Shown here: positions 4,809-55,537 of the stretch, in pieces
Layout: every line of letters begins with the position of its first letter
Position numbering within the stretch: the first letter of the stretch is position 1
DNA from: a plasmid
Sequence record: NZ_CP023785.1
DNA: 64,000 bases
Reading direction: 5' to 3' (one strand)
Notes under the pieces: generated by a model
The model's database searches: none
Told to the model about the DNA's origin: nothing
Seen by the model: the letters and a program-made list of their open reading frames with translations, nothing else
Translations under genes and position numbers: made by a program

Positions 4809-6572
4809 TGTCAATATAGTTGTCGTATTTTTATTTTCCACCTATCAAAAAGCAGAACCTCCCTATGGTCGGTTGGCCTCGTTATCCAATAGGGGAAGAA
4901 TAACTTTTTCCCCTATTGGGTGACGAGGGTTATTTGATAATCTTGAAAGATTATGCTCCTGTTAACTTTCTGTTTCTTTTAAAGGATTCAACGCCACCGA
5001 TTGATGTGGAGTCCAATTTCGAACACCTTTTGACCAGCGTTCAGGATGGCGCTTTTTAGCGTCCTCGTAAACCTGCTTTCGTTTCTCTAAAATAGCGAGA
5101 TGTCGTCCTTCATGACACGCTGCAGGAGACACAAATTGAATCCCACTATGCAAATGAGAATCGTTATACCAATCGACAAACTCTTTCGTCCATTTTCGAG
5201 CATCATCTATTGTTTTAAAGCCGTTATTGGGATATTCTGGTCGATATTTTAACGTTCGGAAAGCCGCTTCCGAATAAGGATTGTCATTACTCACTCGTGG
5301 TCTTGAATAAGAACTTTGAATTCCTAATTTTTCGAGTAAGACTTGAAAAGTCGCGGCTTTCATAGGGCTGCCATTATCGGAGTGTAAAACCAACGGCTGT
5401 CCTTGGATACGTTCCTTAAGCACCGTCTGTTTAATAAGTTTTTCGGCATGACGAGCTTCTTCTGATTCCCAAATCTCCCAGCCTACCATTTTACGGCTAA
5501 ATAAATCAATGATGAGATATAACCGGTAAAAGAGTCCTTTTATTGGACCTTTTAGCCAAGTAATATCCCAAGTCCAAACTTCATTTGGCTTCGTCGCAAG
5601 GTGACTTGGCGGTATGCGTTTTTGTGAAACTTGACTTCGGCCACGGTGATGTTGCATATTTTTTTCTCGCAATACACGATAGAAGCTAGACTCTGATGCA
5701 ATATAAATCGAGCAATCCGCAAGTTTTGGTACAATTTGGCTAGGTGGCAAATTCATAAATTCTTTTTTTGAAACGGTTTCTATTATTTTTTCGCGTTCTT
5801 GATCCGTCAGTTTATTTTTGGGTACAGGACGTTTCGCCAAAGGGCGTTGATCATGCGCTATCGTACCTTCACGCGTCCATCGTTCGTAGGTTCGAACGCT
5901 AATATTCAGCTCATTACAGGCATAGGTGAGACGGGCCCCATTGCGATTGGCTTCTTGAATAAGTTCAACAGCTTGTTTGCGATCTGAAGATGAAATCATT
6001 CTTCCTCTTGGTCCCCCCCAAATCGCGTGTGCTTTTTTTCTTAGTAATAAGAGAGCAGCGGCTTCCGCTAATGCTTTTTCCTTATGACGTAATTCTTTCT
6101 CTAATTGACGCGCTTGTTTTTTCTCTTCTTTTAGTTCAGTTGCAAGTTCTCTCGTTCGATTTTCTTCCTGTTCATTCGCAGATAAGCACGTTTTCTTCCA
6201 AGCCTCAATTTGTTCTTTAAATAAGCCCTTCTTTCGGCAATATTCCGCAAGTTCTACTTGGTTCATTGAGAATGATTCCATCACAATTAAAAATTTATCT
6301 TCACTTGACCATTTTTCGACATTTTTTTTCGTTCCGGGTGTAGTATTCCCTTGAATTCTAGCTTTTTTACGCCAAGAACAAAGAGTCGCTTCTGGAATGC
6401 CCAAAGTTTGACTTAATTGGCGAATCCCCCTATTTTCGGGTGGCATCATTTTCTTGATGGCTGTCGCTTTCAGTTCGGTAGAGTAACGTTCATTGTTTTT
6501 ATTTGTCATGGTAATCATCCTCCGTATAGTCTTTATTATAACTTATTATCCTATACGACAACTAGCCTAACA
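4809..6572 (-). mobile_element. IS3-family element (~1.76 kb) with terminal IRs tgt(c/t)a..tagttgtcgtat and a 19-bp internal hairpin 4856-4912
   Basis: Ends were defined by comparing 4809-4840 with the reverse complement of 6548-6572. There is no TSD; on both sides the element abuts truncated genes. Confidence 0.55.
4962..6518 (-). CDS. IS3-family transposase, OrfA-OrfB fused in one 518-aa frame (HTH + leucine zipper + rve DDE core)
   Basis: N-terminal HTH and zipper ELATELKEEKKQARQLEKEL; C-terminal integrase core WTWDITW..HSDNGSPMKA.. Confidence 0.75.
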   Translation of the reverse strand: MITMTNKNNERYSTELKATAIKKMMPPENRGIRQLSQTLGIPEATLCSWRKKARIQGNTTPGTKKNVEKWSSEDKFLIVMESFSMNQVELAEYCRKKGLFKEQIEAWKKTCLSANEQEENRTRELATELKEEKKQARQLEKELRHKEKALAEAAALLLLRKKAHAIWGGPRGRMISSSDRKQAVELIQEANRNGARLTYACNELNISVRTYERWTREGTIAHDQRPLAKRPVPKNKLTDQEREKIIETVSKKEFMNLPPSQIVPKLADCSIYIASESSFYRVLREKNMQHHRGRSQVSQKRIPPSHLATKPNEVWTWDITWLKGPIKGLFYRLYLIIDLFSRKMVGWEIWESEEARHAEKLIKQTVLKERIQGQPLVLHSDNGSPMKAATFQVLLEKLGIQSSYSRPRVSNDNPYSEAAFRTLKYRPEYPNNGFKTIDDARKWTKEFVDWYNDSHLHSGIQFVSPAACHEGRHLAILEKRKQVYEDAKKRHPERWSKGVRNWTPHQSVALNPLKETES

Positions 6573-6833
6573 TAGGGGGTCTTGTAGTGCTTTAGCTTTA
6601 AATTTTGTTTGAAGTATATCCCAAAGTCTAATTTGTGGATCTAAACTCATAAAATCGGATAGCTTTTTAGCGCTGTTTTTATTAAGGTTTCCGACTATCG
6701 TCATAGCGTCAAAGCTCAATTTCGGATTAGAAGTGCACACGAAATGTGCGTCTAACCGGCTATTAGAGTACGCCGGTTTTTTTGTGTAATTTTCCACCAA
6801 ATTTTCTTGCTCATTTTTCGTTATTTTTGCCAT
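6573..6833 (-). pseudogene. N-terminal 87 codons of a pT181-family (Rep_trans) rolling-circle replication initiator, truncated by the IS3 element; contains dso-like IR aaccggcgtactctaatagccggtt (6754-6778)
   Basis: [84 protein letters not shown] is near-colinear with pT181 RepC residues ~20-95 (from memory), and the nick-site motif TACTCT/AATAGCCGGTT sits in the same position as in pT181. Confidence 0.8.
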
Positions 6834-8531: not shown

Positions 8532-9339
8532 GGTTCTGTTGCAAAGTTTTCCAAAAAATCTATTTTAGTGTAAAATTGAGAAAAAAGACAGAGAGGACAG
8601 AGTAATGAATCATTTTAAAGGCAAACAATTCAAAAAAGACGTCATTATTGTCGCTGTTGGTTACTACCTGCGTTACAATCTAAGCTATCGTGAAGTTCAG
8701 GAATTGTTATATGATCGTGGAATAAATGTTTGTCATACTACGATTTATCGTTGGGTGCAAGAGTACAGCAAAGTCCTCTATTATCTTTGGAAGAAGAAAA
8801 ATAGACAATCCTTCTATTCATGGAAAATGGACGAAACCTATATCAAAATTAAGGGACGTTGGCATTATCTTTATCGTGCAATTGATGCGGACGGCTTAAC
8901 CTTAGATATCTGGTTACGAAAGAAACGGGATACGCAAGCAGCCTATGCTTTCTTAAAACGACTCCATAAACAGTTTGGTGAGCCGAAAGCAATTGTGACC
9001 GATAAAGCACCTTCTCTTGGCTCCGCCTTTAGAAAGTTACAGAGTGTGGGTTTATATACTAAGACAGAGCACCGAACTGTGAAGTATCTTAACAATTTAA
9101 TAGAACAAGACCATCGACCTATTAAACGACGAAATAAATTTTATCAAAGTCTCCGTACAGCCTCTTCCACGATTAAGGGCATGGAGACCATTCGAGGAAT
9201 ATATAAAAAGAACCGAAGAAATGGAACGCTCTTCGGCTTTTCGGTGTCTACTGAAATCAAGGTATTAATGGGAATAACAGCCTAAGATATTTGGAGTTCA
9301 GAGAGGGCGCGTTTGATTTTCAAACTTCGCAACAGAACC
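8532..9339 (+). mobile_element. IS6-family element, variant related to but distinct from IS1216 (IRs ggttctgttgcaaagttt / aaacttcgcaacagaacc)
   Basis: IRs read directly; tnp ~80% identical at protein level to IS1216 copies. Confidence 0.85.
8605..9285 (+). CDS. IS6-family transposase (226 aa, variant)
   Basis: MNHFKGKQFKKDVIIVAVGYYLRYNLSYREVQELLYDRGINVCHTTIYRW... Confidence 0.9.
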   Translation: MNHFKGKQFKKDVIIVAVGYYLRYNLSYREVQELLYDRGINVCHTTIYRWVQEYSKVLYYLWKKKNRQSFYSWKMDETYIKIKGRWHYLYRAIDADGLTLDIWLRKKRDTQAAYAFLKRLHKQFGEPKAIVTDKAPSLGSAFRKLQSVGLYTKTEHRTVKYLNNLIEQDHRPIKRRNKFYQSLRTASSTIKGMETIRGIYKKNRRNGTLFGFSVSTEIKVLMGITA

Positions 9340-11878: not shown

Positions 11879-14230
11879 TTAATTAAGTTTACTTCTATTT
11901 TCTTGAAATTGAATAATTTTTTCAGAAAATCCATTTGCAACTTTCCCCTCATCTCCAATAAAATCAAGATAAGTAAAATCTGTCCCAAGTGAATTATTAA
12001 CTATTTTATCAATGAAAAATGAAATTATCCCTACACCTAAGATATCAACTGTTTCGTCATTTTCTAATAAACTATTTGTTACTGAAGCGATTTTATCTGA
12101 AGAACCAAATCTGTTCTTAACAAATTGATTAAATCTATCAATAGCACCCTTATCACAATAGTACGTTTTTAAAGCCGATAAAGCTGTTGAATCAGAATTT
12201 CTTTTTGCTAAGGTATAAACATTTACCGCGTCAACATCTTGGTATAAATCTTCTAGACTAAATGTTCCACCTGCAGCCGTACCTACTAATGCAAATACAC
12301 CTTGCTCCATTTGTATTCCTAATTTCTTAACTTCACCCCAGCAAGTCATTAAATCTCCTAACCAACCTGCAAAGTCAGAAACACTATCATTGATTGTGTC
12401 GGCTAGAAACATCTGTGATTGTAACGTCACAATTAAGTGAGGCAAACCTATTATTGAACCAGTATTAGGATCTATAAAATAATTATACAGGCCCTCGCTA
12501 TTAGTTAATTTATTCCTATATTCATCATAAATTTTTCTATCATGCTCTGTTACAGGAGAAGAAATGATGTCCCATGACAAACCAGAATAATTTACATATC
12601 TATAAAATGTCAAATGAGGGTTCCAAGGATTATCAAGACCAGCTTGTGATAGATATTGATACGCACGTACCATCTGATTTATAACCTTCTGATTGTATTT
12701 GGCAATGTAATTATCATTATTAGTATCATTTGATAACTCATTAAATCCGCTATCTCTACCCGATGTAGCGATTAAATCGATACCAACAGCTCCGTTGCCA
12801 CTTCCTATGGTAAATTCAACAAATTGATCAAAAGACCATTGTCTAGGCATAGGAAAACCTAAATTCCCACTATAACCAGTCGACATATCTGAAACAAATG
12901 CAAACGAAGCATACCCGTTATTGATTATTTGAGAACAAACATTTCTTGTTCCGTAAACACCCGTTTGATACCCGCTATATGACATTACAGCAGATACCCC
13001 CTTAAAATATTCTCCAGCATATGCAAGAATTTCTTCCCCTAACATGTCTAGATCAACAGCAAAATAAATAACTGTTGTTAATGGTATATTTAGATTTTTT
13101 GCTGCATCTATAGCCTTCTTACCATCTGATAAGCCACGATCATAAGTAAAATAAGCTAATGCTGCACCTCCATCTTGATAGATAGGAAACACAGATAAAT
13201 TTTTAGAAAAAATATTATTCAATTCCTCTGTAGTTAGATACTTATTTCGTTCATCTTTTCCAATTCCAACAGTACCAGTAAGATATCTACCAACTATTTT
13301 TATATCATTATCAACCAATGTTTGGATTTGAGATCTAGTTAATTGCGTAGAAGTATCTGCGCCATCTGCAGATCTTCTAATATCTCCAGCGCTAGACAAT
13401 AGTCCTTTTATTACAACAACATCTGCTATTTCAGTATATTCAGGCAATACCATAAATTTTCGGAATGCCAGTACTTCTAAACCCATATATTTAGTGAAAA
13501 TACCATCGAATGTACCGTCTTCAAAATAACCATTAACATATAATCCATATTGAATTATTCTTACATAGTTTCCCGAGTTACCTTCAGACACAGGATAAGT
13601 TTTACTAGTTGTCCCATTACCATAAGACCCTGTTGCTTCACTGGGAGAATATCCTAGTTCAGCTTGTAATGCAAAAATTAATGCTTGATTTGAATTTCTT
13701 TGATAAATACCATCACAAGGCATTATTCCCGTGTATTCTAAATAATTTACATTTAACCATTGCTGCATTTTTCTAATTTTACTATCTCCGCCGGGAACAA
13801 GAACAAAAGCACTCATATCAAATAACGCTTTGGCCCATTTCGCATCCAAAACTCCAGTTACAGCGCTTCCATTAAACCCTGCATCAGTCTGCAACTCTTT
13901 TACAGCAGTATCTAAATATGGAGTATATACCCCATCGAAGCCACCTGGATTAATCCCCTTACACCAAAAGGCACCTTGAATAAGAAATACAATATTTTTA
14001 GGTAGATTTTTGCCCCATTTAGGAGTAACCTGATTATCGTACATTTTTTCAGTGGTAGGTCCAAAATTAGCTACTAGATTAGTAATACCAAGTTCTACTT
14101 GTAGTCCTTCAATAAGTCCATAGATTGTAGGCCACCCTGTTCGCCCATTTTCTGGAACCTTATCAAACCCTGTAACATTACTGTATTTCTTGTTTAGCCA
14201 TTTCTGAGTACTTAAAACCATCTCATCCAT
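11879..14230 (-). CDS. 783-aa protein with 3-4 N-terminal peptidoglycan-binding (PG_binding_1-like) repeats, a central DUF1906/Rv2525c-like GH-like domain (...IYFAVDLDM...) and a ~300-aa C-terminal domain of unknown function; no signal peptide
   Basis: Repeat pattern V..LQ..L.G....DG..T...; DUF1906-like block RSQIQTLVDNDIKIVGRYL...VIYFAVDLD; own sigma70 promoter and upstream terminator. Confidence 0.6.
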   Translation of the reverse strand: MDEMVLSTQKWLNKKYSNVTGFDKVPENGRTGWPTIYGLIEGLQVELGITNLVANFGPTTEKMYDNQVTPKWGKNLPKNIVFLIQGAFWCKGINPGGFDGVYTPYLDTAVKELQTDAGFNGSAVTGVLDAKWAKALFDMSAFVLVPGGDSKIRKMQQWLNVNYLEYTGIMPCDGIYQRNSNQALIFALQAELGYSPSEATGSYGNGTTSKTYPVSEGNSGNYVRIIQYGLYVNGYFEDGTFDGIFTKYMGLEVLAFRKFMVLPEYTEIADVVVIKGLLSSAGDIRRSADGADTSTQLTRSQIQTLVDNDIKIVGRYLTGTVGIGKDERNKYLTTEELNNIFSKNLSVFPIYQDGGAALAYFTYDRGLSDGKKAIDAAKNLNIPLTTVIYFAVDLDMLGEEILAYAGEYFKGVSAVMSYSGYQTGVYGTRNVCSQIINNGYASFAFVSDMSTGYSGNLGFPMPRQWSFDQFVEFTIGSGNGAVGIDLIATSGRDSGFNELSNDTNNDNYIAKYNQKVINQMVRAYQYLSQAGLDNPWNPHLTFYRYVNYSGLSWDIISSPVTEHDRKIYDEYRNKLTNSEGLYNYFIDPNTGSIIGLPHLIVTLQSQMFLADTINDSVSDFAGWLGDLMTCWGEVKKLGIQMEQGVFALVGTAAGGTFSLEDLYQDVDAVNVYTLAKRNSDSTALSALKTYYCDKGAIDRFNQFVKNRFGSSDKIASVTNSLLENDETVDILGVGIISFFIDKIVNNSLGTDFTYLDFIGDEGKVANGFSEKIIQFQENRSKLN

Positions 14231-45006: not shown

Positions 45007-45127
45007 TCAAAACCTCCAAAGTAAATTATAAGTAGACTTAAAATTTATTTTTAAAAATGCTATGATAACAGTAAAACTACAAGTAAATTTTACATGTAAA
45101 TTATATCATTTTTTAAAAGGAGTTTTT

Positions 45128-45733
45128 ATGGCAAAAATTGGATATATTAGAGTGTCTTCACAAGATCAAAATTTAGATCGACAATTGGCAATGATGGAAG
45201 ACCTTAACATTGATAAATTATTCCAAGAAAAAGCCAGTGGTAAAGATATCCAGCGACCTGAGTTTCAAAAATTACTAAATTATATCCGAGAAGGTGATTG
45301 TGTCATTGTTGCATCACTGGATCGCCTAGGCAGAGATTATGAAGACATAAAAAATACAGTTACCTTTATGAAACAGAAAAAAGTAGCATTAAAAATACTA
45401 GATGCACAGTTTTTAGATTTTAATACTGGAAATGAACTCCTAGATACTGCTATGTTCGATATGTTTTTATCATTGCTAAGTTATATTGCACAAAACGAAC
45501 GTGAGAAAATCCGTGAACGTCAGCGGCAAGGAGTATTATTGGCCAAAAAAGCTGGTCGATATAAGGGGCGACCAATTGAATATTCTGAGAACTCAACAGA
45601 TCCGCAAAAACGATTAGTCTTTAAAACTGTGGTGGACATGTTAAATCAAGGAGTTCCAGTTGCAGAAATTGCCAAAGAAAATGGTCTCTCTCGACCAACC
45701 ATATATAAAATAAAGAAAGCGAATGATTTGTAG
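45128..45733 (+). CDS. tnpR: serine resolvase (201 aa; ORF-track start 45062 is an upstream in-frame extension)
   Basis: MAKIGYIRVSSQDQNLDRQ catalytic Ser, C-terminal HTH; RBS aaaggag. Confidence 0.85.
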   Translation: MAKIGYIRVSSQDQNLDRQLAMMEDLNIDKLFQEKASGKDIQRPEFQKLLNYIREGDCVIVASLDRLGRDYEDIKNTVTFMKQKKVALKILDAQFLDFNTGNELLDTAMFDMFLSLLSYIAQNEREKIRERQRQGVLLAKKAGRYKGRPIEYSENSTDPQKRLVFKTVVDMLNQGVPVAEIAKENGLSRPTIYKIKKANDL

Positions 45734-45778: not shown

Positions 45779-46084
45779 CTATGTTCCATGTACCCCATAT
45801 TCTCTATGAAGGAGTTTCAATGTCATATTCTTTTTCATTAGTTCTTTATGAACATATTCCCAGTCTACAGGAAGGTAACCTCGTGCTGTTGTTTGTTTTT
45901 CCGGAAAAAGATATTCCTGCAGCCAAGTATCGCTCATATCAGCGGTTAGTTCAGTCACCCCCTTCCTGTCTGCTCGAGAAGTAACTTCTCGAATCGTATG
46001 TCTGGAGCTTCCCACAGTTAAACTAATCGTTCGTTGAGAAATACCGGAAAAATAAAGCTCCAAAATTTTTCGATAGTGAACCAA
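45779..46084 (-). pseudogene. IS21-family IstA N-terminal fragment, truncated by the Tn3-like IR
   Basis: HTH SQRTISLTVGSSRHTIREV and PVDWEYVHKELMKKNMTLKLLHREY block; last codons are read from the IR. Confidence 0.55.
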
Positions 46085-47454: not shown

Positions 47455-48494
47455 ACCCGTGGTGCTAGTTAATTTTTTCCTAGAGGAAAATGTCTAAACA
47501 TGTTGGTAAATCAACAAAAAAACGCATATAGTAGTCTCAAAACTCCCAAGAAATGAGGACTACATATGCGTTCATCAAAATATACTGAACATTATACAGA
47601 TACTTTTATAACATTCAAGGAAATTATGAGAACTGTTTCTAACATATACCACAATTGTGTACCAGATAAGATTAAAAACCGAAGAAATACTGATCAACTG
47701 AAGCAACGCGATACAGTGATTATTGCTTGTGTTATATGGGGCATAATTAATGGCTATACTAGCCAAAGAGCCACGTATAGAGCGGTTTGTTCCATCTTAT
47801 TTCCTAATGGTGACTTTCCTAGTAGGAGTCGATTCACTCGCTTAAGTTCAAACTTAGCTTACACTATCAAGATTATTCGATACTTTTTCATCAAGAAGCT
47901 CACCAAAGGTGAACTAGTCGGAATTATAGATAGTTTTCCTAGTCCATTATGTAAACCAGTTAGAAATAGACAAGCAAAACTATTGAATCAAATAGCCAAA
48001 GTTGGCTATAACTCAACAAAAAAATCTTATTTTTATGGTCTTAAAATTCATATGATCGTTACTAAGACTGGCTTTCCGATTACTTACTCAATCACGAATC
48101 CAGGTGTCCATGACGTGAAAGTGTTAGAGACTTTATCGGAAGAAGCGAATCTTCCCAATATCCTAGGGGACAAAGGATATATTAGCCATAAAATCCATGA
48201 AAAGCTTGCCCTTATGGGCATTACTATATCCATTCCGCCACGTAAAAACATGGATAAATCAGAAAAACTAGACCACAGCTTACTTGGAAAACAAAGAAAA
48301 ACAGTTGGGACTGTTTTTTCTTTGTTAGAAAAATTAGGTTGTCAAAATTTCAACTCACGTTCTGTTAAAGGGCTAGAGAGTAGATTTGAAAGCATATTAC
48401 TGGCTTACAGTGTTCTATTAAGTCGAGCACAACGACGTTTTGAAGGAACTTTGAGATATTCTTTAGGATATTAAAATTAACTAGCACCACGGGT
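47455..48494 (+). mobile_element. IS982-family element (ISEfm1-like), 22-bp IRs acccgtggtgctagttaatttt
   Basis: IRs 47455-47476 / 48473-48494. Confidence 0.8.
47566..48474 (+). CDS. IS982-family DDE transposase (302 aa)
   Basis: YFYGLKIHMIVT..., DKGYIS motifs. Confidence 0.8.
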   Translation: MRSSKYTEHYTDTFITFKEIMRTVSNIYHNCVPDKIKNRRNTDQLKQRDTVIIACVIWGIINGYTSQRATYRAVCSILFPNGDFPSRSRFTRLSSNLAYTIKIIRYFFIKKLTKGELVGIIDSFPSPLCKPVRNRQAKLLNQIAKVGYNSTKKSYFYGLKIHMIVTKTGFPITYSITNPGVHDVKVLETLSEEANLPNILGDKGYISHKIHEKLALMGITISIPPRKNMDKSEKLDHSLLGKQRKTVGTVFSLLEKLGCQNFNSRSVKGLESRFESILLAYSVLLSRAQRRFEGTLRYSLGY

Positions 48495-48532
48495 ATCTAT
48501 TAAGAAGATCCTAGGTTATCTTAGATTATCTG

Positions 48533-50353
48533 CTAATCTTTGTATTTCCAGCAGTATCCTCCAGCATGTTTTTGAACTCCATTTGCAGCATCCCTAATAC
48601 TTTTTGAGTTAACGCCAACTTCTTTTACAGCAGAAGCTATAGTATCGAATTCTTTTATTATTGTTCCATCATCAGTCATTTGAATAATCTGTCTTCCACG
48701 CTTCTTGCTAGGCTCACTAATCGCATCCTCTTTTTTGTTCGCTTTTAGAAAATCAGATTTTTCCTTAGCTATCCGCTCTGCCTCTTGTTTAGCAAATAAT
48801 AGCTTAATTGCCTTATCCCTACGAGCCTCTAAAGTACCAACATCGTGCCGTGTTTTACGCATAATTCCTTCATCAAGAATGAGAATTTCATTATCGTAAT
48901 CCTTAATTTTTCGATAAGCTTTAGCATAAGAATCATATAGCGCAGGAGCATCATAGCCGTTATATCGAGCTTTATCAAAAAGTGCAATAGCTTCATCTAC
49001 TTTGCCATTTTTCCTAGCAGTTTCTCCACGTTCCCAATATGGATAACCTGCATCAAATCCTTTCTCCCAATTCCCTATATTTCGTATCTTGTTTAATGAA
49101 ACTCGATTATGCAACCCGTTAATAATTACATCTTCTCTAGATATCACTTTTTCAATATTTAGGTTAACTTCAGTCTCATCATATCCACGATTTTTTGCAT
49201 CGAATAATAACTCTTTCATCGCTGATTTTGAAATAGATTTCAGCATACTAAGGCTTTGCTCTGCTTCTTTTTTAGTGTAATTACTAACACTCATATATTC
49301 ATTCATAGAATTATAACAATCGCTATAAGCACTGAAAATATAATTTGAAAGAGGCGTTAAGTCAAAGGGGCTACGAAAATAGACTCGCACATTTGTTGTA
49401 CCGCCTTCACTTACAGTACAAGGTTCTATAGGTAAATCAATTCCATTTGTAGCATCTTTTCTAATAATGATGTAATTTCCCTTCTTAGCAAACTTAAACT
49501 TTAAGAATGTATATAGACAAGTTACATCGACATAATTATTACTGTTTTTTCGATACCTGATCCAACTGGTGTCGCATCCTTTTTTCTCAATAATATCTTG
49601 AATAAAAGCACAAGCTTCAAGTTCTTTTATGTCTGGAGTCATCTTTTCTATTTGCTTTTTTTGTTCTTCCAACGACTCCTCAATAATATCTAAAACACCC
49701 CAAAAAATCTTTCCGCATATATCTGCATCTGATTCCGCTCTATGGGCAGTGTCATTTATTAATCCGAAATATTCCGCTACAGTCTCTTGCTTATGATTTA
49801 CAATGCCTTTTATATGTTTTCTAGAGAGACTCAGAGTATCAACATACTTAATTTTAGCATCATACCCAAGTCTAGAAAATGTGTTACTTAAAAATCCAAA
49901 ATCGAAACTTGCATTGTGTGCACACATAGTGATTTTTCCATCTAGTGCATCTCCTAAAAATTCTACCAACTGGGGGTAAACTTCCTGCTCATTTGGAGCA
50001 GAGTTTAGCATTTCATTAGTTATATTATTTATTGCCGAAGCTGAGGCTGCAATTCTAACTTTTGGATTGACAAGAGTTCCGAATGATTGAATTGGAACTC
50101 CTTCTTTAAATAGCACCGCACCAATCTCTACAATTCTATCTGAAGAAGAATTTAGGCCAGTTGTTTCCACATCAAAAGCGATAAAAGTTTTACGAAACTC
50201 ATCTACATTTGATATGTCCACTTCCAATTTTTCAGCAAAAACTTTACCAGTACGAAATAGACTAGAAGCCAGTTGATAATCAACGTGTTTACTAACCTTT
50301 CCTTGTTTTTTCTTTAGAAAATCAAATAATCCCACTATTATTTCCTCCCCCAT
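48533..50353 (-). CDS. 606-aa multidomain protein: DnaQ-like DEDDh 3'-5' exonuclease (res ~55-215) + central unknown + TPR-like segment + C-terminal NUMOD-like DNA-binding tail (...GYCWKYKD)
   Basis: Exo I FDVETTGL, Exo II HNASFDFGFL, Exo III HRAESDAD; C-terminal SI.DAANG...GGYCWKY. Confidence 0.6.
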   Translation of the reverse strand: MGEEIIVGLFDFLKKKQGKVSKHVDYQLASSLFRTGKVFAEKLEVDISNVDEFRKTFIAFDVETTGLNSSSDRIVEIGAVLFKEGVPIQSFGTLVNPKVRIAASASAINNITNEMLNSAPNEQEVYPQLVEFLGDALDGKITMCAHNASFDFGFLSNTFSRLGYDAKIKYVDTLSLSRKHIKGIVNHKQETVAEYFGLINDTAHRAESDADICGKIFWGVLDIIEESLEEQKKQIEKMTPDIKELEACAFIQDIIEKKGCDTSWIRYRKNSNNYVDVTCLYTFLKFKFAKKGNYIIIRKDATNGIDLPIEPCTVSEGGTTNVRVYFRSPFDLTPLSNYIFSAYSDCYNSMNEYMSVSNYTKKEAEQSLSMLKSISKSAMKELLFDAKNRGYDETEVNLNIEKVISREDVIINGLHNRVSLNKIRNIGNWEKGFDAGYPYWERGETARKNGKVDEAIALFDKARYNGYDAPALYDSYAKAYRKIKDYDNEILILDEGIMRKTRHDVGTLEARRDKAIKLLFAKQEAERIAKEKSDFLKANKKEDAISEPSKKRGRQIIQMTDDGTIIKEFDTIASAVKEVGVNSKSIRDAANGVQKHAGGYCWKYKD

Positions 50354-50397
50354 TAATTTTATCCAGAATCACTTTTACGATGCCTTTTTCTTATATT

Positions 50398-51240
50398 CTA
50401 CCTATTCGCATACCACAAGAAGTGATCTAACTTTCTTCTTCTAAAAGGAATATGTATATTATTTTCATCAAGTAGTTTTCCAACACATTCGTTAAATGCC
50501 TCGTAATCAAAACTTCTTCGCCACGTATCAATCTTATTCGTAGTTAGTCCTTGGATATAGTGTGGAAGAGTATTTTTAACGATACCATCAAAGATGGAGT
50601 AATCATCTCTCCCACACACTTCCACATTATGATATGTACAGTACTTGGATGCAAATGAGAACATATTAACTGCACCAATGTTCCTTGCGATAATATTTAT
50701 CAACTGAGGATCTCCTTTTGCCAACCGATCATCAAAATTTGGAATCTCCAGAATTACTTTAGCCAAATCATATAGAGACAACCTGCTCTTATATTGAGAA
50801 AGATGTGTTGAATTTGTTACATCAATTACCGCAATCTTCATCGCAATAGTATTTAAATCATTATGAAGAGGAAATGCATTCAAAACATCATGTATTATTA
50901 GACCTTCTTTCCCATAATTAGAGCTTGCACCTACAAACTTATGCTGTTTCTCAATATTTTCTTCAGTTAAAGATAAGTATTTTTGTTTATGGATTGTTTC
51001 ACTTATAGTTTTTTCTTTACTTGAATCAAGCTTAAGAACCTTGTCAATGCACCAATATGTTGTTGCTCCTTTTATTGGGGAAATATCATTCTGCTTAAGA
51101 TATTCTTTTAATAAACTCAGTTGTTTTCCTTCTGGAATAGTACCAGATTTCGTTTCTATGATATGAGGTTGTGGTTTGGAAGTACCTTCATTAGCAGCAA
51201 ATACAGCATACTCAACATCATTTATTGTTATGATTTTCAA
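50398..51240 (-). CDS. hypothetical protein (280 aa), operonic partner of the exonuclease
   Basis: 44-bp gap to exonuclease gene, 15 bp to upstream HTH gene. Confidence 0.5.
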   Translation of the reverse strand: MKIITINDVEYAVFAANEGTSKPQPHIIETKSGTIPEGKQLSLLKEYLKQNDISPIKGATTYWCIDKVLKLDSSKEKTISETIHKQKYLSLTEENIEKQHKFVGASSNYGKEGLIIHDVLNAFPLHNDLNTIAMKIAVIDVTNSTHLSQYKSRLSLYDLAKVILEIPNFDDRLAKGDPQLINIIARNIGAVNMFSFASKYCTYHNVEVCGRDDYSIFDGIVKNTLPHYIQGLTTNKIDTWRRSFDYEAFNECVGKLLDENNIHIPFRRRKLDHFLWYANR

Positions 51241-51255
51241 TACAAATTACACCTC

Positions 51256-51477
51256 CTAATTACCTATCTTTATTTCATTGCCATCAGGCAATATAAAAGC
51301 CTGCACAAACTTGACACCTAGCACATCAGCAATCGCTTTCAACTCATCTAAGGTTACCGTTTCTCGTTGTAATTTCTTATTGAAATTCTGTGGAGTCTGT
51401 CCAATACGTCTAGCAAGTTCGGAAACACTTATATTCATTTGCTCACACAGTTCTTTAATCATTTCTGCCGTAGTCAT
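51256..51477 (-). CDS. XRE-family helix-turn-helix regulator (73 aa)
   Basis: ISVSELARRIGQTPQNFNKKL. Confidence 0.7.
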   Translation of the reverse strand: MTTAEMIKELCEQMNISVSELARRIGQTPQNFNKKLQRETVTLDELKAIADVLGVKFVQAFILPDGNEIKIGN

Positions 51478-51619
51478 ACAGCACCTCCAAGTTTACGCTA
51501 AGAATATTATAAATCATTTGGTTTATAATAACAATAGTTATTAAAATATTATTATAATCAGCAAGCAAAAGAAAACCCACGACTCTACTGTAGAATCATG
51601 GGCTATTTACTTCTGGTTT

Positions 51620-51898
51620 TCATATTTCCATTTCGATGCCAGATTTGAAGGATATGACGAAGTGTTCTTCATAGACTGTAACGCTCTGGATTATCTTCCT
51701 TACAAGCTTATCATCGTACTCTAAGGTACGGAATTTGTTCTTGCGGATAAATTCAATCAGCTCATTGATTCGCTCGTTCTCGCCACTGAGGGAGGCATCT
51801 TCTACTAAAAGGAGCTGTCGCTTGTCTCTCAGCTCATCAATCTCATCTGCTAGATGTTCATAATCTTGACCCTTATTAGCCAGCTTGATGAGTTCTTT
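51620..51898 (-). pseudogene. C-terminal coiled-coil fragment of a recombinase-like gene, 5' removed by IS1216
   Basis: ORF runs into IS1216 IR; sequence resembles C-terminal coiled-coil of large serine recombinases (weak). Confidence 0.3.
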
Positions 51899-52707
51899 GG
51901 TTCTGTTGCAAAGTTTTAAATCTACTATCAAATAAGGTAGAATAATAGAAAAAGATAGCAGGAGGAATGACGATGAATCATTTTAAAGGAAAGCAATTTC
52001 AGCAGGATGTGATTATTGTAGCCGTGGGCTACTATCTTCGTTATAACCTTAGCTATCGTGAAGTTCAAGAAATCTTATATGATCGTGGCATTAACGTTTC
52101 TCATGCGACGATTTATCGTTGGGTGCAAGAATATGGCAAACTACTCTATCAAATTTGGAAAAAGAAAAATAAAAAATCCTTTTATTCATGGAAAATGGAT
52201 GAAACGTACATCAAAATTAAAGGAAAATGGCATTATTTGTATCGAGCCATCGATGCAGATGGTTTAACCTTGGATATTTGGTTACGTAAAAAACGGGACA
52301 CACAAGCAGCCTATGCTTTTCTTAAGCGGTTAGTGAAGCAGTTTGATGAACCGAAGGTTGTAGTCACAGATAAAGCCCCCTCTATTACAAGTGCCTTTAA
52401 GAAACTAAAAGAATACGGCTTTTATCAAGGGACAGAACATCGTACCATTAAATACCTGAATAATTTGATTGAACAAGACCATCGTCCAGTAAAGAGACGC
52501 AATAAATTCTATCGAAGTTTACGCACTGCCTCTACCACGATTAAAGGCATGGAAGCCATTCGAGGATTATATAAGAAAACCCGAAAAGAAGGCACTCTCT
52601 TCGGGTTTTCGGTCTGTACTGAAATCAAGGTATTATTGGGAATCCCAGCTTAAATCATAGATACCGTAAGGGATTTTATTCTTTATTTAAAACTTTGCAA
52701 CAGAACC
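51899..52707 (+). mobile_element. IS1216, intact
   Basis: IRs both ends. Confidence 0.95.
51973..52653 (+). CDS. IS1216 transposase
   Basis: as above. Confidence 0.95.
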   Translation: MNHFKGKQFQQDVIIVAVGYYLRYNLSYREVQEILYDRGINVSHATIYRWVQEYGKLLYQIWKKKNKKSFYSWKMDETYIKIKGKWHYLYRAIDADGLTLDIWLRKKRDTQAAYAFLKRLVKQFDEPKVVVTDKAPSITSAFKKLKEYGFYQGTEHRTIKYLNNLIEQDHRPVKRRNKFYRSLRTASTTIKGMEAIRGLYKKTRKEGTLFGFSVCTEIKVLLGIPA

Positions 52708-52710
52708 TTT

Positions 52711-53931
52711 TTATTTTACAGAAGCACTCGAAACTGCATCTACTGCAGTTTCATCGTGTGTGCTGGCGCTGGTTACTGCATCTGTTTTTCCACCATGAAC
52801 AGATGCACTTGAAACCGCATCTTCATTTCCAACAAGTTGTTGACCCGTTTGTTGTAAATACCACTCAATGATTGGTTTGAAATCAAGAATGTATTCATTG
52901 ATTCCAGCATACTCTCCATTTTCATCATGCATTGCTTGGTAATTATGCACAATATATTTTTCTGGCACTTGTTTTGGTACATGAACACGTACCGCATCTG
53001 TTGCTCCGCTTCGCAGTTGTTGAATTACCCACTCTACATTTTTATACGATTTTTCTGGGTGACAGTTGGCTAATGGATTCCCTACCTGACCGGGCACACG
53101 AGCAGCTAACATCTCTTTCGCTTCTTGGCGCAAATTATAATATAAAAATTGGTTATTATTATCTGCAAAAGTTAATTCCATCGGCATCGAATCTAAAAAG
53201 TAATTGATTTGATCCACTGTCAATAACCCACGATTTAATTTGACGTAAGTATTTCCAGAAACGGCACCGACTGCTTCAGAAGCTTTTTCCAACCAATGAT
53301 CATCTGACATATCAACATCGGGTATTGTCGTAGCAATTGTTCCTGTCGCATGCAAATCTTCTGGTGGAAGCTTTTTAGGCCCTGCTAAGGTAGACACGAC
53401 TTTAATGAATTTTACAAAACTTGCTAATGTACTGCCTAAAAAGTCAACAGTTCGTGGATCAATCAAGCGATCTTCTTGGTCAAATGCTTCTTTTGCTTTT
53501 CCCAATAAAAATTCATTTCCGGGCATCACTAATGCATTCACGCCTGGTGCGTCCAAAATTTGGCGCAAGTGTAATTGCGCGCGTGAAGTTCCTTGATCGT
53601 AGTAAGAAGCACCCACAACCATTACAGGTTTATTTTCAAGTGGATGGATTTTAAATGATAGCCATTCAAGTGCACTTTTCAATCCTGCTGGAACCGTATG
53701 ATTGTGTTCTGGCGTAGCAATAATTACCCCATCAGCCATTAAGATTTTGCGATTTAGCTGTTGAATAGCAGGACTATTTGTTTGATCATCATCTTGATTG
53801 AACAGAGGTAAATCTTTGATTTCAATGATTTCTAAATTAAATAGTTCATGATATTGTTTTTGGATAAATGTTAATAATTTACGGTTATATGAAAGTTCAG
53901 CTGCTGATCCGACGATACCTATTAATTTCAT
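52711..53931 (-). CDS. NADPH-dependent FMN reductase-family domain fused to a ~200-aa C-terminal domain of unknown function and a repetitive DAV(S/T)SAS(V/T)H tail (start MKLIGIVGS at 53931)
   Basis: flavodoxin-like fold signature LIGIVGS...GVIIATPEHNHTVPAGLKSALEWLS; tail repeats read directly. Confidence 0.6.
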   Translation of the reverse strand: MKLIGIVGSAAELSYNRKLLTFIQKQYHELFNLEIIEIKDLPLFNQDDDQTNSPAIQQLNRKILMADGVIIATPEHNHTVPAGLKSALEWLSFKIHPLENKPVMVVGASYYDQGTSRAQLHLRQILDAPGVNALVMPGNEFLLGKAKEAFDQEDRLIDPRTVDFLGSTLASFVKFIKVVSTLAGPKKLPPEDLHATGTIATTIPDVDMSDDHWLEKASEAVGAVSGNTYVKLNRGLLTVDQINYFLDSMPMELTFADNNNQFLYYNLRQEAKEMLAARVPGQVGNPLANCHPEKSYKNVEWVIQQLRSGATDAVRVHVPKQVPEKYIVHNYQAMHDENGEYAGINEYILDFKPIIEWYLQQTGQQLVGNEDAVSSASVHGGKTDAVTSASTHDETAVDAVSSASVK

Positions 53932-53950
53932 CTTTGTTTGCTCCCCTCGA

Positions 53951-54562
53951 TTAAATCGTTTCCCATGAAAAGCTTTCGGCTTCACGTTTATTTGCTTGGT
54001 GCGCATGTTGCAATTGACTAGTGATTGTGACAAAGAGTAAGAAATCTTTGAATAGTTCACGTAATTTTGCGACTTGTTCTTCATCAATGAGTCGTCCTTG
54101 CTCATCAAAGGCTTGGAGTGAATGACCCAATAAAAATTCTGAGCTTGGCATAATTCGTGCCTTTAACTCTGGTGAATCCAATATTTGGCGCAAATGTGCT
54201 TGTGCGCGTGAAGAACCTAACGTGCCATAAGACGCTCCGGTAATCATCACTGGTTTATCCACAAACGGAAAAATACCATATGAAAGCCAATTTAATGCGT
54301 TAATCAATGAAGCAGGAACCGCATGGTCATACTCTGGTGTGCTGATGATTACGCCATCTGCTTGTTCAATTTTTCCAGCAATTTCTTTAACAACATTTGG
54401 TAGTTCTGTGTTTTCAGGTTTGTTAAATAGTGGCAGCTCCTTGATTTCGACAATTTCGATTTCTGCCTCATTTACAAAATAATTTTTCATAAACTGTAAT
54501 AATTCACGGTTTGTTGACCGCGTTGAATTTGTTCCTACTAATCCAATAAATTTCATCTTCAT
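53951..54562 (-). CDS. NADPH-dependent FMN reductase-family protein (203 aa)
   Basis: paralog of N-terminal domain of preceding gene. Confidence 0.7.
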   Translation of the reverse strand: MKMKFIGLVGTNSTRSTNRELLQFMKNYFVNEAEIEIVEIKELPLFNKPENTELPNVVKEIAGKIEQADGVIISTPEYDHAVPASLINALNWLSYGIFPFVDKPVMITGASYGTLGSSRAQAHLRQILDSPELKARIMPSSEFLLGHSLQAFDEQGRLIDEEQVAKLRELFKDFLLFVTITSQLQHAHQANKREAESFSWETI

Positions 54563-54604
54563 TCTCTTTCCTTTCTAACATCGATTTCTGACTGTTCGCA
54601 CGTA

Positions 54605-55537
54605 CTAAATTTTTTCAAATCCTTTTGTATACAAGAATTGATTCTCTTTTGTTACAACTGCTCCCTCGATACCCGGCTGTTCTTCAAGCGCTTTCAACAC
54701 TTCTAAAGAAGATGCTCCAAATAAACGTGTAGTCCAGATTTCTCCATCTACAGAAGAATCAGACAAAATCGTCAGGCTTGCTACGTCATTTTTAACTGGA
54801 AAGCCAGTTTTCGGATCAATGATGTGATGATACACTGACGAACCATTTTGTAGATAACGTTCGTAGATTCCAGAGGTAACTAAAGATTGGTTGCTTAGTT
54901 TAACCACCGCAAGCGACTCTTCACGTGAACCTTTAGGATTTCGCAAACCAATACGCCAAGCACCATCCGAACGTCTTGGTGATTCACCAAAAACAACGAT
55001 ATTTCCTCCTAAGTTAACTAAAGCAAACGCTGCATTTCGCTCTCGGCAATGTGTAATTAATTTATCTGCAATGTAACCTTTTGCTAACGCCCCCAAGTCA
55101 ATCATCATTCCTGGTTTGGTTAAAAAAACGGTTTTCATTTTTTCATCTAATTGAATTTGGTGTGGATCCGTTAGCAGAAGTAACTCAGTTATCTCTGCTT
55201 TTGTTGGAACCAATGCATCTTCAAATCCAATGTGCCATTTTTGTACAACCGGACCAATAGCAATATTCAGATAACTATTTCTTGCACAACTATGTGCTTT
55301 TCCTAATTTGATGAGCTCAAAAAGTTCAGGATGTACAATCACAGCTTGTCGTCCAGCAGCTTGATTGATGGCCATTAATTCAGAAGTTGCATCATGTGCG
55401 CTGAAGCGATGTTCATAAACGTGCAACCATTCGCCTAACTCTGCTAGTAATCGACTAGGCTCTTCATGCCCAACTTGTAATGTAATTGTTGTCCCCATCA
55501 TTTGCCAGATTTTCGTTTCTTCGATCACCTGATTCAT
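54605..55537 (-). CDS. apbE: FAD:protein FMN transferase
   Basis: 310 aa ApbE family sequence. Confidence 0.75.
   Translation of the reverse strand: MNQVIEETKIWQMMGTTITLQVGHEEPSRLLAELGEWLHVYEHRFSAHDATSELMAINQAAGRQAVIVHPELFELIKLGKAHSCARNSYLNIAIGPVVQKWHIGFEDALVPTKAEITELLLLTDPHQIQLDEKMKTVFLTKPGMMIDLGALAKGYIADKLITHCRERNAAFALVNLGGNIVVFGESPRRSDGAWRIGLRNPKGSREESLAVVKLSNQSLVTSGIYERYLQNGSSVYHHIIDPKTGFPVKNDVASLTILSDSSVDGEIWTTRLFGASSLEVLKALEEQPGIEGAVVTKENQFLYTKGFEKI

What the first reader, a model, noticed from the sequence alone, without database searches (positions are those of the whole stretch)
48533..51477. XRE-regulated three-gene operon encoding a DnaQ-like DEDDh exonuclease fused to TPR-like and NUMOD-like modules: candidate novel anti-phage/anti-plasmid defence island between IS982 and IS1216
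The 606-aa protein has an unusual architecture.
- All three exonuclease motifs are present: FDVETTGL, HNASFDFGFL and HRAESDAD (DEDDh).
- An unrecognised ~200-aa middle region follows.
- A TPR-like segment (AIALFDKARYNGYDAPALYDSYAKAY) and a C-terminal tail ending ...HAGGYCWKYKD complete it. The tail resembles NUMOD1-type DNA-binding modules of homing endonucleases.

It is co-transcribed with a 280-aa protein of no recognisable family and a 73-aa XRE HTH regulator. The operon is compact and lies between two IS elements. It has the look of a defence system, in which exonuclease domains recur, but it matches none I can name.
Basis: partly seen in the sequence, partly recalled or inferred. Interest (0 to 1): 0.8.

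Follow-up and report, generated by a model that had tools for sequence, protein, structure and literature searches.

The report
Mobile-element exonuclease with DNA-binding tail
An Enterococcus faecium megaplasmid carries an IS-trimmed piece of a serine-recombinase mobile element; it encodes an uncharacterised DNA exonuclease fused to TPR and DNA-binding modules, which may act in phage or plasmid conflict but is a stand-alone gene, not a three-gene system.

Summary
The three minus-strand ORFs are real. The large protein has an intact PolC/DnaQ-type DEDDh exonuclease domain, a TPR domain and a NUMOD-like tail. Its start is probably the GTG at 50335, giving 600 aa.

The "XRE-regulated three-gene defence operon" reading is only partly supported.
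- The window is a pLG1-type E. faecium megaplasmid. IS1216 and ISEfm1 have cut a 3.4-kb piece out of a serine-recombinase element found at about 96% nt identity in Vagococcus, Caproicibacterium and a Clostridiales MAG.
- The XRE gene is a reusable cassette leader. The same gene (97% aa) heads unrelated cargo elsewhere.
- Full-length exonuclease homologs (50-75% id) occur in at least 10 other contexts without the 280-aa gene.
- Relatives of the 280-aa protein (PF27257, HI_0787_N, function unknown) occur without the exonuclease.

The exonuclease sits in integrative or conjugative-element cargo and in prophage lysogeny or moron positions. Its neighbours include AbiE, AbiL-like, Gabija-like and TIR-like genes. 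This fits a defence or superinfection-exclusion role but is only guilt by association. It matches no named defence system. I found no literature on the family.

Verdict: an uncharacterised variant of a known enzyme kind, of moderate interest.

The parts
48533..50335 (-). Exonuclease gene. It encodes 600 aa from GTG 50335. The ORF finder extends it to ATG 50353 (606 aa), and the residue numbers below use that 606-aa numbering.
   Evidence: ORF. RBS and start. RefSeq aa. Homolog N-termini. The AF2 model has pLDDT 87.
49640..50191 (-). DEDDh 3'-5' exonuclease domain of PolC/DnaQ type, residues ~55-238.
49190..49630 (-). Middle alpha/beta-plus-helical domain, residues ~242-388. It is shared with PRK06807-type and phage exonucleases and is absent from the prophage variant.
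   Evidence: NF005289 covers residues 55-364 and phrog_14632 covers 55-355. A 307-aa BFVD protein aligns over 288 columns. There is no PDB sequence hit. The domain is deleted in the 505-aa prophage variant.
48857..49069 (-). TPR domain, residues ~429-499.
48536..48697 (-). NUMOD-like (I-HmuI-type) putative DNA-binding tail, residues ~553-606. A long helix (residues 506-542) precedes it.
   Evidence: PF22083 at 5.2e-5, PADLOC HEase at 4.7e-9 and phrog_20162 at 2e-5. The motif SKSIRDAANGVQKHAGGY.W is almost invariant.
50398..51240 (-). 280-aa protein of family PF27257 (HI_0787_N), function unknown. The conserved core is residues ~88-280.
   Evidence: There is no hit in local Pfam, NCBIfam, PADLOC, PHROGs or PDB.
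51256..51477 (-). 73-aa XRE/HTH_26 regulator, a reusable cassette leader of the parent element.
   Evidence: PF13443 at 53 bits. It is 97% identical to Javan630_0007, which heads different cargo. It is duplicated in L003 and L089.
51506..51534 (-). Promoter-like site (TTGTTA-17-TATAAT) upstream of XRE.
   Evidence: This is a consensus match only.
51574..51604 (-). Terminator-like hairpin after the recombinase remnant.
51620..51898 (-). 3' remnant of a large serine-recombinase gene, cut by IS1216.
   Evidence: 91% aa identity to the C-terminus of Javan630_0008. Homology to L002, L003 and L089 stops at 51898.
51899..52653 (+). IS1216 (IS6 family). Its left end is at 51899 and its transposase ORF is 51967-52653.
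   Evidence: PF13610 at 8.8e-42. RefSeq annotation. The inverted-repeat end is read.
47566..48474 (+). ISEfm1 (IS982 family) transposase. The IS ends before 48494, where homology to the parent element begins.

Best explanation
**Shown**
- The locus is a 3.4-kb fragment (48494-51898) of a serine-recombinase integrative element. This element family inserts beside rlmD/rumA-type genes. IS1216 and ISEfm1 captured the fragment on an E. faecium megaplasmid.
- The fragment carries a generic XRE cassette leader followed by two cargo genes that are independent of each other in evolution.
- The large gene encodes a catalytically intact PolC/DnaQ-type 3'-5' exonuclease. Its parts are a conserved N-terminal MGLFDFLKKK peptide, a PRK06807-like middle domain, a TPR domain, a long helix and a NUMOD-like tail.
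- This full-length protein family is widespread in Bacillota. It occurs as a solitary gene on integrative or conjugative elements and prophages, and sometimes in the chromosome.

**Inferred**
- The protein works on its own as a DNA-tethered exonuclease. The NUMOD-like module would hold it on DNA. The TPR domain would bind a protein partner or trigger. The DEDDh domain would resect free 3' ends.
- Its recurrent position suggests a role in conflict between mobile elements: defence or superinfection exclusion against incoming phage or plasmid DNA. It lies between the prophage repressor and integrase, after lysis genes next to attR, or in element cargo beside Abi- and Gabija-type genes.
- The upstream HTH protein probably sets expression.
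- The 280-aa HI_0787_N protein is most likely a separate cargo gene of unknown activity, not an obligate partner.
For: **Origin and boundaries:**

**Catalytic integrity and DNA-type exonuclease:**

**Full-length conservation:** 35 homologs at 51-75% identity with the same domain order.

**Exonuclease found without the 280-aa gene:**
- LexA-like repressor, exonuclease, integrase (L006).
- Resolvase, exonuclease (L007).
- Exonuclease near AbiEi/AbiEii (L080).
- AAA_13, exonuclease (L081-84).
- Solitary gene between MatE and a sulfatase gene (L085-88).
- RhuM, exonuclease, and DUF6061, exonuclease, NikA-like (L093, L094).
- Prophage end: two serine recombinases, HTH, exonuclease, a 228-aa gene, then OLD-TOPRIM ATPase plus UvrD-like helicase (L096).
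- Exonuclease near AAA_21 plus RloB (L097).

**Neighbour scan:** PADLOC on 124 neighbours gives AbiLi at 2.7e-90, GajB and AriA-type ATPases.

**Phage evidence:**
- Prophage variant order is CI repressor, HTH, exonuclease, TIR-like protein, then integrase (L048-57).
- The C. tetani phage relative is the last gene before attR.

**280-aa relatives without the exonuclease:**
Against: - No experiment or literature exists for this family.
- The match to the PADLOC candidate PDC-S48 covers the exonuclease domain only.
- The defence association rests on about a dozen contexts. There was no statistical control, and many PADLOC ATPase hits cross-match.
- Some copies sit among ordinary chromosomal genes.
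- The NUMOD-like hit is below Pfam's gathering score.
- DNA binding, substrate and the role of the TPR domain are all untested.
- A functional link between the 280-aa protein and the exonuclease in this particular module cannot be excluded. They are adjacent and probably co-transcribed.
Confidence: 0.45

Rival explanations
1. XRE, the 280-aa protein and the exonuclease form one integrated three-component defence system. XRE would be the dedicated regulator, the 280-aa protein a sensor or partner, and the exonuclease the effector.
For: Spacing is tight, there is a single promoter-like site and no internal terminator. The trio is kept intact in four genera. Relatives of the 280-aa protein head operons with varied downstream genes, including DUF2971/PDC-S31 and an EEP-like nuclease, which could be read as a sensor with swappable effectors. 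A small HTH also precedes a 280-aa relative in L103-105.
Against: The four occurrences are about 96% identical in DNA, so they count as one transfer event rather than independent conservation. Diverged exonuclease homologs in 10 or more contexts lack the 280-aa gene, and 280-aa relatives lack the exonuclease. The same XRE heads unrelated cargo.
Confidence: 0.12
2. A replication or repair accessory. The mobile element would encode a proofreading or end-processing exonuclease that serves its own or the host replisome, for example by trimming 3' ends during element replication, integration or repair, or by modulating mutation rate.
For: The closest relatives by sequence and fold are the PolC proofreading domain, DinG exonuclease and epsilon. 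The protein passes the TIGR00573 dnaq domain cutoff. Phage relatives are annotated as DNA polymerase III epsilon. Parent-type elements carry PolA, DUF2800 and Enc34-type replication genes.
Against: The gene is not found inside replication modules. It lies in lysogeny, moron or cargo positions and is often solitary. Scores are far below the epsilon and PolC equivalog cutoffs. TPR and NUMOD-like domains are not features of proofreading subunits.
Confidence: 0.2
3. A counter-defence factor. The element would use the exonuclease to destroy host immune nucleic acids, such as retron or DRT cDNA, CRISPR adaptation intermediates or signalling oligonucleotides, or to protect its own DNA ends.
For: The gene is carried by plasmids, integrative or conjugative elements and prophages. 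Defence and anti-defence genes share the same islands. DEDDh enzymes act in CBASS (Cap18) and in CRISPR adaptation (Cas2-DEDDh).
Against: A position in the prophage lysogeny module, next to the repressor and integrase, suggests expression in the lysogen rather than early in infection. Chromosomal solitary copies exist. The PolC-type domain and DNA-binding tail do not point to small-molecule signals.
Confidence: 0.12

Closest known systems
PRK06807 / NF005289-type '3'-5' exonuclease' of Bacillota and phage phrog_14632 proteins (about 310-380 aa)
   Same: They share the PolC-like DEDDh domain followed by the same middle domain. The profile covers residues 55-364. A C. tetani prophage relative aligns over residues 51-385.
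   Different: Those proteins stop after the middle domain. The window protein adds a linker, a TPR domain, a long helix and a NUMOD-like tail, plus the MGLFDFLKKK N-terminus. Its score of 191.9 is below the family cutoff of 335. Neither group has a tested function.
PolC proofreading domain / DnaQ epsilon / DinG N-terminal exonuclease
   Different: There is no polymerase or helicase domain and no replication-gene context. Equivalog cutoffs are missed by large margins.
Stand-alone DEDDh defence candidates: PADLOC PDC-S48, Cas-associated DEDDh, CBASS Cap18, and ISG20-like TONDO exonucleases (PMC13344964)
   Same: Each is a single-gene DEDDh exonuclease with an auxiliary domain, sitting on mobile elements or near defence genes. 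The TONDO paper shows such genes can defend and that auxiliary domains or ORFs matter.
   Different: PDC-S48 and Cas-DEDDh match only the exonuclease domain. TONDOs are ISG20-like RNA exonucleases acting on RNA phages, whereas this protein is a PolC-like DNA-type enzyme with TPR and NUMOD-like modules. No cas or CBASS genes lie nearby.
NUMOD/I-HmuI-type DNA-binding modules of HNH and GIY-YIG homing endonucleases
   Same: The C-terminal ~50 residues match PF22083, PADLOC HEase and phrog_20162.
   Different: There is no HNH or GIY-YIG catalytic domain. The nuclease here is a DEDDh exonuclease. The Pfam score is below the gathering threshold.
phi-m46.1 / Javan630-type 'rum'-site serine-recombinase elements of streptococci
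   Same: The recombinase 3' end, intergenic region and XRE gene are shared at 94-95% nt and 97% aa. The cargo follows the XRE gene.
   Different: The cargo there is a 289-aa unknown protein plus aminoglycoside and spectinomycin resistance genes, not the 280-aa protein plus exonuclease. In the window the element is reduced to a fragment between IS elements.

Membership tests
DEDDh (DnaQ-like / RNase_T, PF00929) exonuclease superfamily | Exo I (DxE), Exo II (D) and Exo III (Hx4D) motifs are present and conserved. | tested here: met
   D61, E63, D151, H204 and D209 are invariant in 35 homologs. PF00929 scores 102 bits against a cutoff of 24.
DEDDh (DnaQ-like / RNase_T, PF00929) exonuclease superfamily | RNase H-like exonuclease fold. 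| tested here: met
DNA polymerase III epsilon / PolC proofreading subunit (functional orthologue) | Reaches the equivalog score and sits with polymerase domains or in a replication context. | tested here: not met
   TIGR01406 scores 78.5 against 222.7, TIGR01405 scores 124.6 against 1043, and PRK00448 scores 138.5 against 873. Contexts are mobile-element cargo, not replication.
NCBIfam NF005289 (PRK06807) 3'-5' exonuclease | Whole-protein score at or above 335, with a ~313-aa architecture of exonuclease plus middle domain. | tested here: not met
   The score is 191.9. The profile is covered at positions 8-307 of 313, but the protein carries about 240 extra C-terminal residues.
PADLOC candidate PDC-S48 | Full-length match to the 411- or 512-position profile. 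| tested here: not met
   Only profile positions 4-170 and 14-172, the exonuclease domain, are matched.
CRISPR-associated DEDDh (Cas2-DEDDh / stand-alone) | Adjacent to cas1/cas2 or a CRISPR array. | tested here: not met
   No cas genes appear in the 27-kb annotated neighbourhood. No homolog locus listed cas domains.
TPR repeat proteins | Tandem helix-turn-helix repeats with TPR geometry. | tested here: met
NUMOD-like / I-HmuI DNA-binding module (PF22083) | Profile match above the gathering score, and DNA binding. | tested here: inconclusive
   The score is 23.2 bits against a gathering score of 27. Supporting matches are PADLOC HEase at 4.7e-9 and phrog_20162 at 2e-5. Several homologs carry a precomputed PF22083 hit. 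DNA binding cannot be tested here.
Homing endonucleases (HNH / GIY-YIG + NUMOD) | Presence of an HNH, GIY-YIG or LAGLIDADG catalytic domain. | tested here: not met
   No such domain appears in Pfam, NCBIfam or PHROGs scans. Only the C-terminal module matches.
XRE / Cro-C1 HTH regulators | HTH_26 or HTH_3 domain above cutoff. | tested here: met
   PF13443 scores 53.1 bits against 22, and PF01381 scores 28.3 against 23.
Pfam PF27257 (HI_0787_N) | Match to the family profile. | tested here: met
   A precomputed PF27257 hit exists for identical and related proteins. The model is absent from the local Pfam copy. The family has no known function.
Type II toxin-antitoxin pair (XRE antitoxin + downstream toxin) | Toxicity of the downstream protein, neutralised by the HTH protein. 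| not testable with these tools
   Only the arrangement is seen: XRE with a 15-nt gap to the 280-aa gene, and a 57-aa HTH next to a relative in L103-105. The same XRE also precedes unrelated genes.
Conserved multigene defence system (operon-level family) | The component genes co-occur across diverged homologs. | tested here: not met
   Co-occurrence is seen only in copies at 89% aa identity or higher. Diverged homologs of each gene lack the other.

The most novel reading that the evidence does not exclude
The exonuclease-TPR-NUMOD protein would be a new single-gene immune or superinfection-exclusion factor of Bacillota mobile elements. It would be a DNA-tethered, PolC-type 3'-5' exonuclease, possibly also held at the membrane by its Vipp1-like MGLFD N-terminal peptide. 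The TPR domain would license it to resect the 3' ends of entering or replicating foreign DNA. The neighbouring HI_0787_N protein would be a second, unrelated conflict gene of a large uncharacterised family, with 615 clusters at 50% identity. The prophage variant paired with a TIR-like protein would then be a two-gene relative of the same system.
Probability: 0.3. Interest if true: 0.6.

Novelty: new variant of a known kind. Interest (0 to 1): 0.45.

Why it matters
This module is carried by at least 87 sequenced enterococcal plasmids, mostly clinical E. faecium megaplasmids, and has moved between Enterococcus, Vagococcus and clostridial genomes.

If the exonuclease restricts phage or plasmid DNA, it would affect phage therapy and plasmid traffic in a priority pathogen. 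It would also add a PolC-like DNA exonuclease with a homing-endonuclease-type DNA-binding module to the list of single-gene defences.

The comparative result is useful in itself. It shows that a compact, IS-flanked 'operon' can be an accidental assembly of independent cargo genes behind a generic regulator. That should guide which constructs are tested.

The 280-aa protein belongs to a large family with no known function, which recurs in conflict-type neighbourhoods.

Tried and rejected
**The 280-aa protein**
- Profile searches of its family found nothing credible against PDB, NCBIfam or Pfam.
- Two longer relatives with N-terminal fusions also gave no PDB hits.
- My initial idea that its core is an OGG/HhH-GPD-like glycosylase fold found no support and is dropped.

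**The exonuclease middle domain**
- A profile search against PDB gave no hit.

- The afdb50 fold library was unavailable.

**Comparisons that found nothing**
- I tested whether a conserved third gene follows the exonuclease. The downstream genes in L003, L080, L089, L090 and L091 share no similarity.
- I tested whether the Javan630 289-aa protein is a diverged homolog of the 280-aa protein. It is not.

**Literature**
- Searches for the family, the protein accessions, PDC-S48 and HI0787 returned nothing relevant.
- The diDNase (NrnC-like) and TONDO (ISG20-like) papers concern other DEDD subfamilies.

**N-terminal peptide**
- The MGLFDFLKKK peptide is not shared by the C. difficile or C. tetani phage relatives or by the prophage variant.
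Full report
**1. What is in the sequence**

Three ORFs lie head to tail on the minus strand:
- 73 aa at 51256-51477.
- 280 aa at 50398-51240.
- 606 aa at 48533-50353.

Reading the strand gives this order. First comes the 3' end of another ORF, then a terminator-like hairpin (51604-51574). A TTGTTA-17-TATAAT promoter-like site follows (51534-51506), then an RBS and the 73-aa gene. After a 15-nt gap holding an RBS comes the 280-aa gene, which starts with TTG. A gap of about 62 nt follows, then GGGGGAGG, 8 nt and a GTG at 50335 (for the scans). The ATG at 50353 lies inside that RBS. Homologs start MGLFDFLKKK and RefSeq annotates 600 aa. I therefore take GTG 50335 as the start. No terminator is predicted between the three genes, so co-transcription is likely. 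It has not been shown.

**2. Where the window comes from and what bounds the module**

The 3.3-kb stretch is 100% identical to many E. faecium megaplasmids of 150-380 kb. Eighty-seven plasmid records hold at least 80% of it. RefSeq annotates the region as ISEfm1 (IS982 family), exonuclease domain-containing protein, hypothetical protein, HTH regulator, IS1216.

The 103-aa ORF upstream of the XRE gene is not a gene of its own. From 51898 downward it is the C-terminus of a large serine recombinase, 91% aa identical to Javan630_0008. The IS1216 terminal repeat begins at 51899.

BLASTN shows that window 48494-51898 is about 96% identical to DNA in three other genomes: Vagococcus fluvialis (L003), a Clostridiales MAG (L004) and Caproicibacterium (L089). 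In those genomes the stretch lies directly after intact serine-recombinase genes. The 'island between two IS elements' is thus a fragment of a serine-recombinase integrative element that IS1216 and ISEfm1 trimmed.

Related elements are the streptococcal 'rum'-site prophage-like elements. A 291-nt relic of the exonuclease gene lies next to an rlmD/rumA-type methyltransferase gene in Streptococcus, Carnobacterium and Granulicatella.

**3. The XRE gene is a generic cassette leader**

The 73-aa protein is a clear HTH_26/XRE regulator. In Javan630 a 97%-identical copy sits at the same place after the recombinases. It is followed there by an unrelated 289-aa protein and resistance genes.

The leader also occurs twice within single elements:
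- In Vagococcus, one copy heads a cassette of a Crp-family regulator, a P-type ATPase and an HMA-domain protein, and the other heads the 280-aa and exonuclease genes.
- In Caproicibacterium, a second copy heads a SUKH immunity plus Tox-GHH cassette.
- The repeated unit even includes part of the recombinase 3' end.

The regulator therefore belongs to the element's cargo-entry architecture, not specifically to the exonuclease.

**4. The exonuclease protein**

*Domain evidence*
- Pfam RNase_T matches at 5.7e-29 over residues 58-217.
- The five DEDDh residues are invariant in 35 homologs.
- A family profile hits the T. maritima PolC exonuclease domain at 6.9e-35, and also PolC, DnaQ, DinG exonuclease and Cas2-DEDDh.
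- An AF2 model built from 35 homologs is confident, with pLDDT 87.
- The tail matches I-HmuI NUMOD-like PF22083 (5.2e-5, below the gathering score), PADLOC HEase (4.7e-9) and an HNH-endonuclease PHROG (2e-5). Its sequence SKSIRDAANGVQKHAGGY.W is almost invariant.
- The middle region is not orphan. NCBIfam PRK06807 covers residues 55-364 and phrog_14632 covers 55-355. A 307-aa phage protein aligns over exonuclease plus middle domain. A C. tetani prophage protein matches residues 51-385.
- The fold of the middle domain could not be assigned.

*N-terminal peptide*
- The family begins with the conserved peptide MGLFDFLKKK followed by a disordered linker.
- The first five residues equal the start of the membrane-binding helix alpha-0 of Vipp1/PspA, which reads MGLFDRxxRV (PMC13051332).
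- This is a lead only. Phage relatives lack the peptide.

**5. Is it a three-gene system?**

No. Full-length homologs at 50-75% identity are numerous in Clostridia, Lachnospiraceae and Lactobacillales. In every diverged context examined, the 280-aa gene is absent.

| Locus | Gene order around the exonuclease |
|---|---|
| L006 | LexA-like repressor, exonuclease, tyrosine integrase |
| L007 | resolvase, exonuclease |
| L080 | exonuclease, two unknown genes, AbiEi/AbiEii |
| L081-84 | AAA_13 ATPase, exonuclease |
| L085-88 | solitary gene between MatE and a sulfatase gene |
| L093 | RhuM, exonuclease |
| L094 | DUF6061, exonuclease, NikA-like |
| L096 | prophage end: holin, endolysin, two serine recombinases, HTH, exonuclease, 228-aa gene, OLD-TOPRIM ATPase + UvrD-like helicase (Gabija-like) |
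| L097 | exonuclease near AAA_21 + RloB |

A shorter prophage variant of 505-537 aa has a zinc-ribbon N-terminus and no middle domain, but keeps the TPR domain and tail at 50% identity. It lies between a CI-type repressor plus HTH gene and the integrase. A 317-aa protein with a TIR-like match (3.6e-17) always follows it.

Conversely, relatives of the 280-aa protein occur without the exonuclease:
- At 75-77% identity they are followed by unrelated genes: DUF2971/PDC-S31, a 390-aa unknown and an EEP-like protein near SIR2 and NOV_C genes in a Tn916-like element, or 323- and 278-aa unknowns.
- More distant relatives sit between Macro and ADP-ribosylglycohydrolase genes, or pair with a 57-aa HTH gene.

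No conserved third gene follows the exonuclease.

**6. The 280-aa protein**

- It belongs to PF27257 (HI_0787_N) according to precomputed annotation.
- The conserved core is residues ~88-280. It occurs in 615 clusters at 50% identity, often as stand-alone proteins of about 200 aa or with other N-terminal domains.
- K135 and K199 are invariant. Several Asp, His and Trp positions are nearly invariant, which suggests an enzyme.
- No library or structure search assigned a function.
- Its AF2 model is unreliable.

**7. Most likely function**

*Shown:* the protein is a catalytically intact, PolC-type (DNA-type) 3'-5' exonuclease joined to a TPR domain and a homing-endonuclease-type DNA-binding module. 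It is carried as an autonomous gene by integrative or conjugative elements, prophages and plasmids.

*Inferred:* the tail tethers the enzyme to DNA, the TPR domain binds a partner or trigger, and the enzyme resects free 3' ends of foreign DNA.

The positions of the gene are those where prophages and integrative elements keep genes expressed in the lysogen, such as exclusion and defence genes:
- Between repressor and integrase.
- As the last gene before attR, after the lysis cassette.
- In cargo regions beside AbiE, AbiL-like, Gabija-like, AAA_13 and TIR-like genes. A PADLOC scan of 124 neighbours gave AbiLi at 2.7e-90 and GajB.

An HTH regulator lies immediately upstream in four of about eleven independent contexts. 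I put about 0.45 on this overall account. The descriptive part is secure. The defence role is guilt by association without a control.

The rivals are a replication or repair accessory (0.2), the integrated three-gene system (0.12) and a counter-defence factor (0.12).

**8. Comparison with what is known**

- *Closest by sequence:* PRK06807-type exonucleases, which share the exonuclease plus middle domain. This protein scores below their cutoff and adds about 240 residues.
- *Closest by fold:* the PolC, DnaQ and DinG exonuclease domains.
- *Closest by concept:* single-gene DEDDh defence candidates. These are PADLOC PDC-S48 and Cas-DEDDh, which match over the exonuclease domain only, and the ISG20-like TONDO RNA exonucleases, whose auxiliary domains or ORFs matter (PMC13344964). 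diDNases are another DEDD subfamily linked to islands (PMC11706625).

The window protein is a member of none of these families. I found no paper on the family.

**9. Verdict**

The architecture is unusual and uncharacterised, and a conflict role is plausible. The 'XRE-regulated three-gene defence operon/island' is an accidental assembly: a generic leader plus two independent cargo genes, cut out by IS elements.
- Novelty: a new variant of a known kind.
- Interest: 0.45.

Noticed in passing
L008-L016, L019, L023 (e.g. L010:9986-10312); corresponds to window ~48725-49030: A 291-nt relic of the exonuclease gene (aa 442-543, 99.7% nt identity) survives in Streptococcus, Carnobacterium and Granulicatella genomes. 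It lies just after an rlmD/rumA-type methyltransferase gene and before the same ~340-aa membrane protein that follows the C-truncated exonuclease in Caproicibacterium (L089). It looks like a decayed copy of the same 'rum'-site element.
   Followed up: partly
window 51260-51898; L003:4376-5008 and 8727-9095; L089:8343-8985 and 13443-14035: The XRE gene, its promoter region and part of the serine-recombinase 3' end form a repeated leader unit. Each copy heads a different cargo cassette (metal-resistance genes, SUKH plus Tox-GHH, resistance genes). This suggests cargo accretes by recombination at this unit.
   Followed up: partly
L048-L057 (e.g. L056:7740-10241): A prophage variant of the exonuclease has a zinc-ribbon N-terminus and lacks the middle domain. 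A 317-aa protein with a TIR-like match (PADLOC Effector TIR, 3.6e-17) always follows it, between the CI-type repressor and the integrase. This could be a two-gene system.
   Followed up: partly
L099-L102 (gene at 6001-6831); L103-L105; L090:9001-12847: Relatives of the 280-aa HI_0787_N protein occur in three kinds of setting. Some lie between a Macro-domain gene and an ADP-ribosylglycohydrolase gene. Some are paired with a 57-aa HTH gene. Some lie beside DUF2971/PDC-S31, SIR2_2 and NOV_C genes in a Tn916-like element. One representative (P0273) carries an N-terminal HExxH motif.
   Followed up: partly
window 50306-50335 (residues 7-16 of the 606-aa ORF): The conserved N-terminal peptide MGLFDFLKKK begins like the lipid-binding helix alpha-0 of Vipp1/PspA (MGLFDRxxRV; PMC13051332). 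It may be a membrane-targeting or docking peptide.
   Followed up: partly
window 52711-55537 and onward to ~56819: On the other side of IS1216 lies a flavin-related operon: an NAD(P)H-dependent oxidoreductase, an NADPH-dependent FMN reductase and an FAD:protein FMN transferase, plus an HTH regulator. Per the RefSeq annotation of the identical plasmid, a second IS1216 copy bounds it.
   Followed up: no
window 45062-45733 and 45779-46084: A resolvase-type recombinase gene lies next to a short ORF that looks like the N-terminal part of an IS21-type transposase. This points to further mobile-element debris upstream of ISEfm1.
   Followed up: no
The afdb50 fold library was not available.
   Followed up: no
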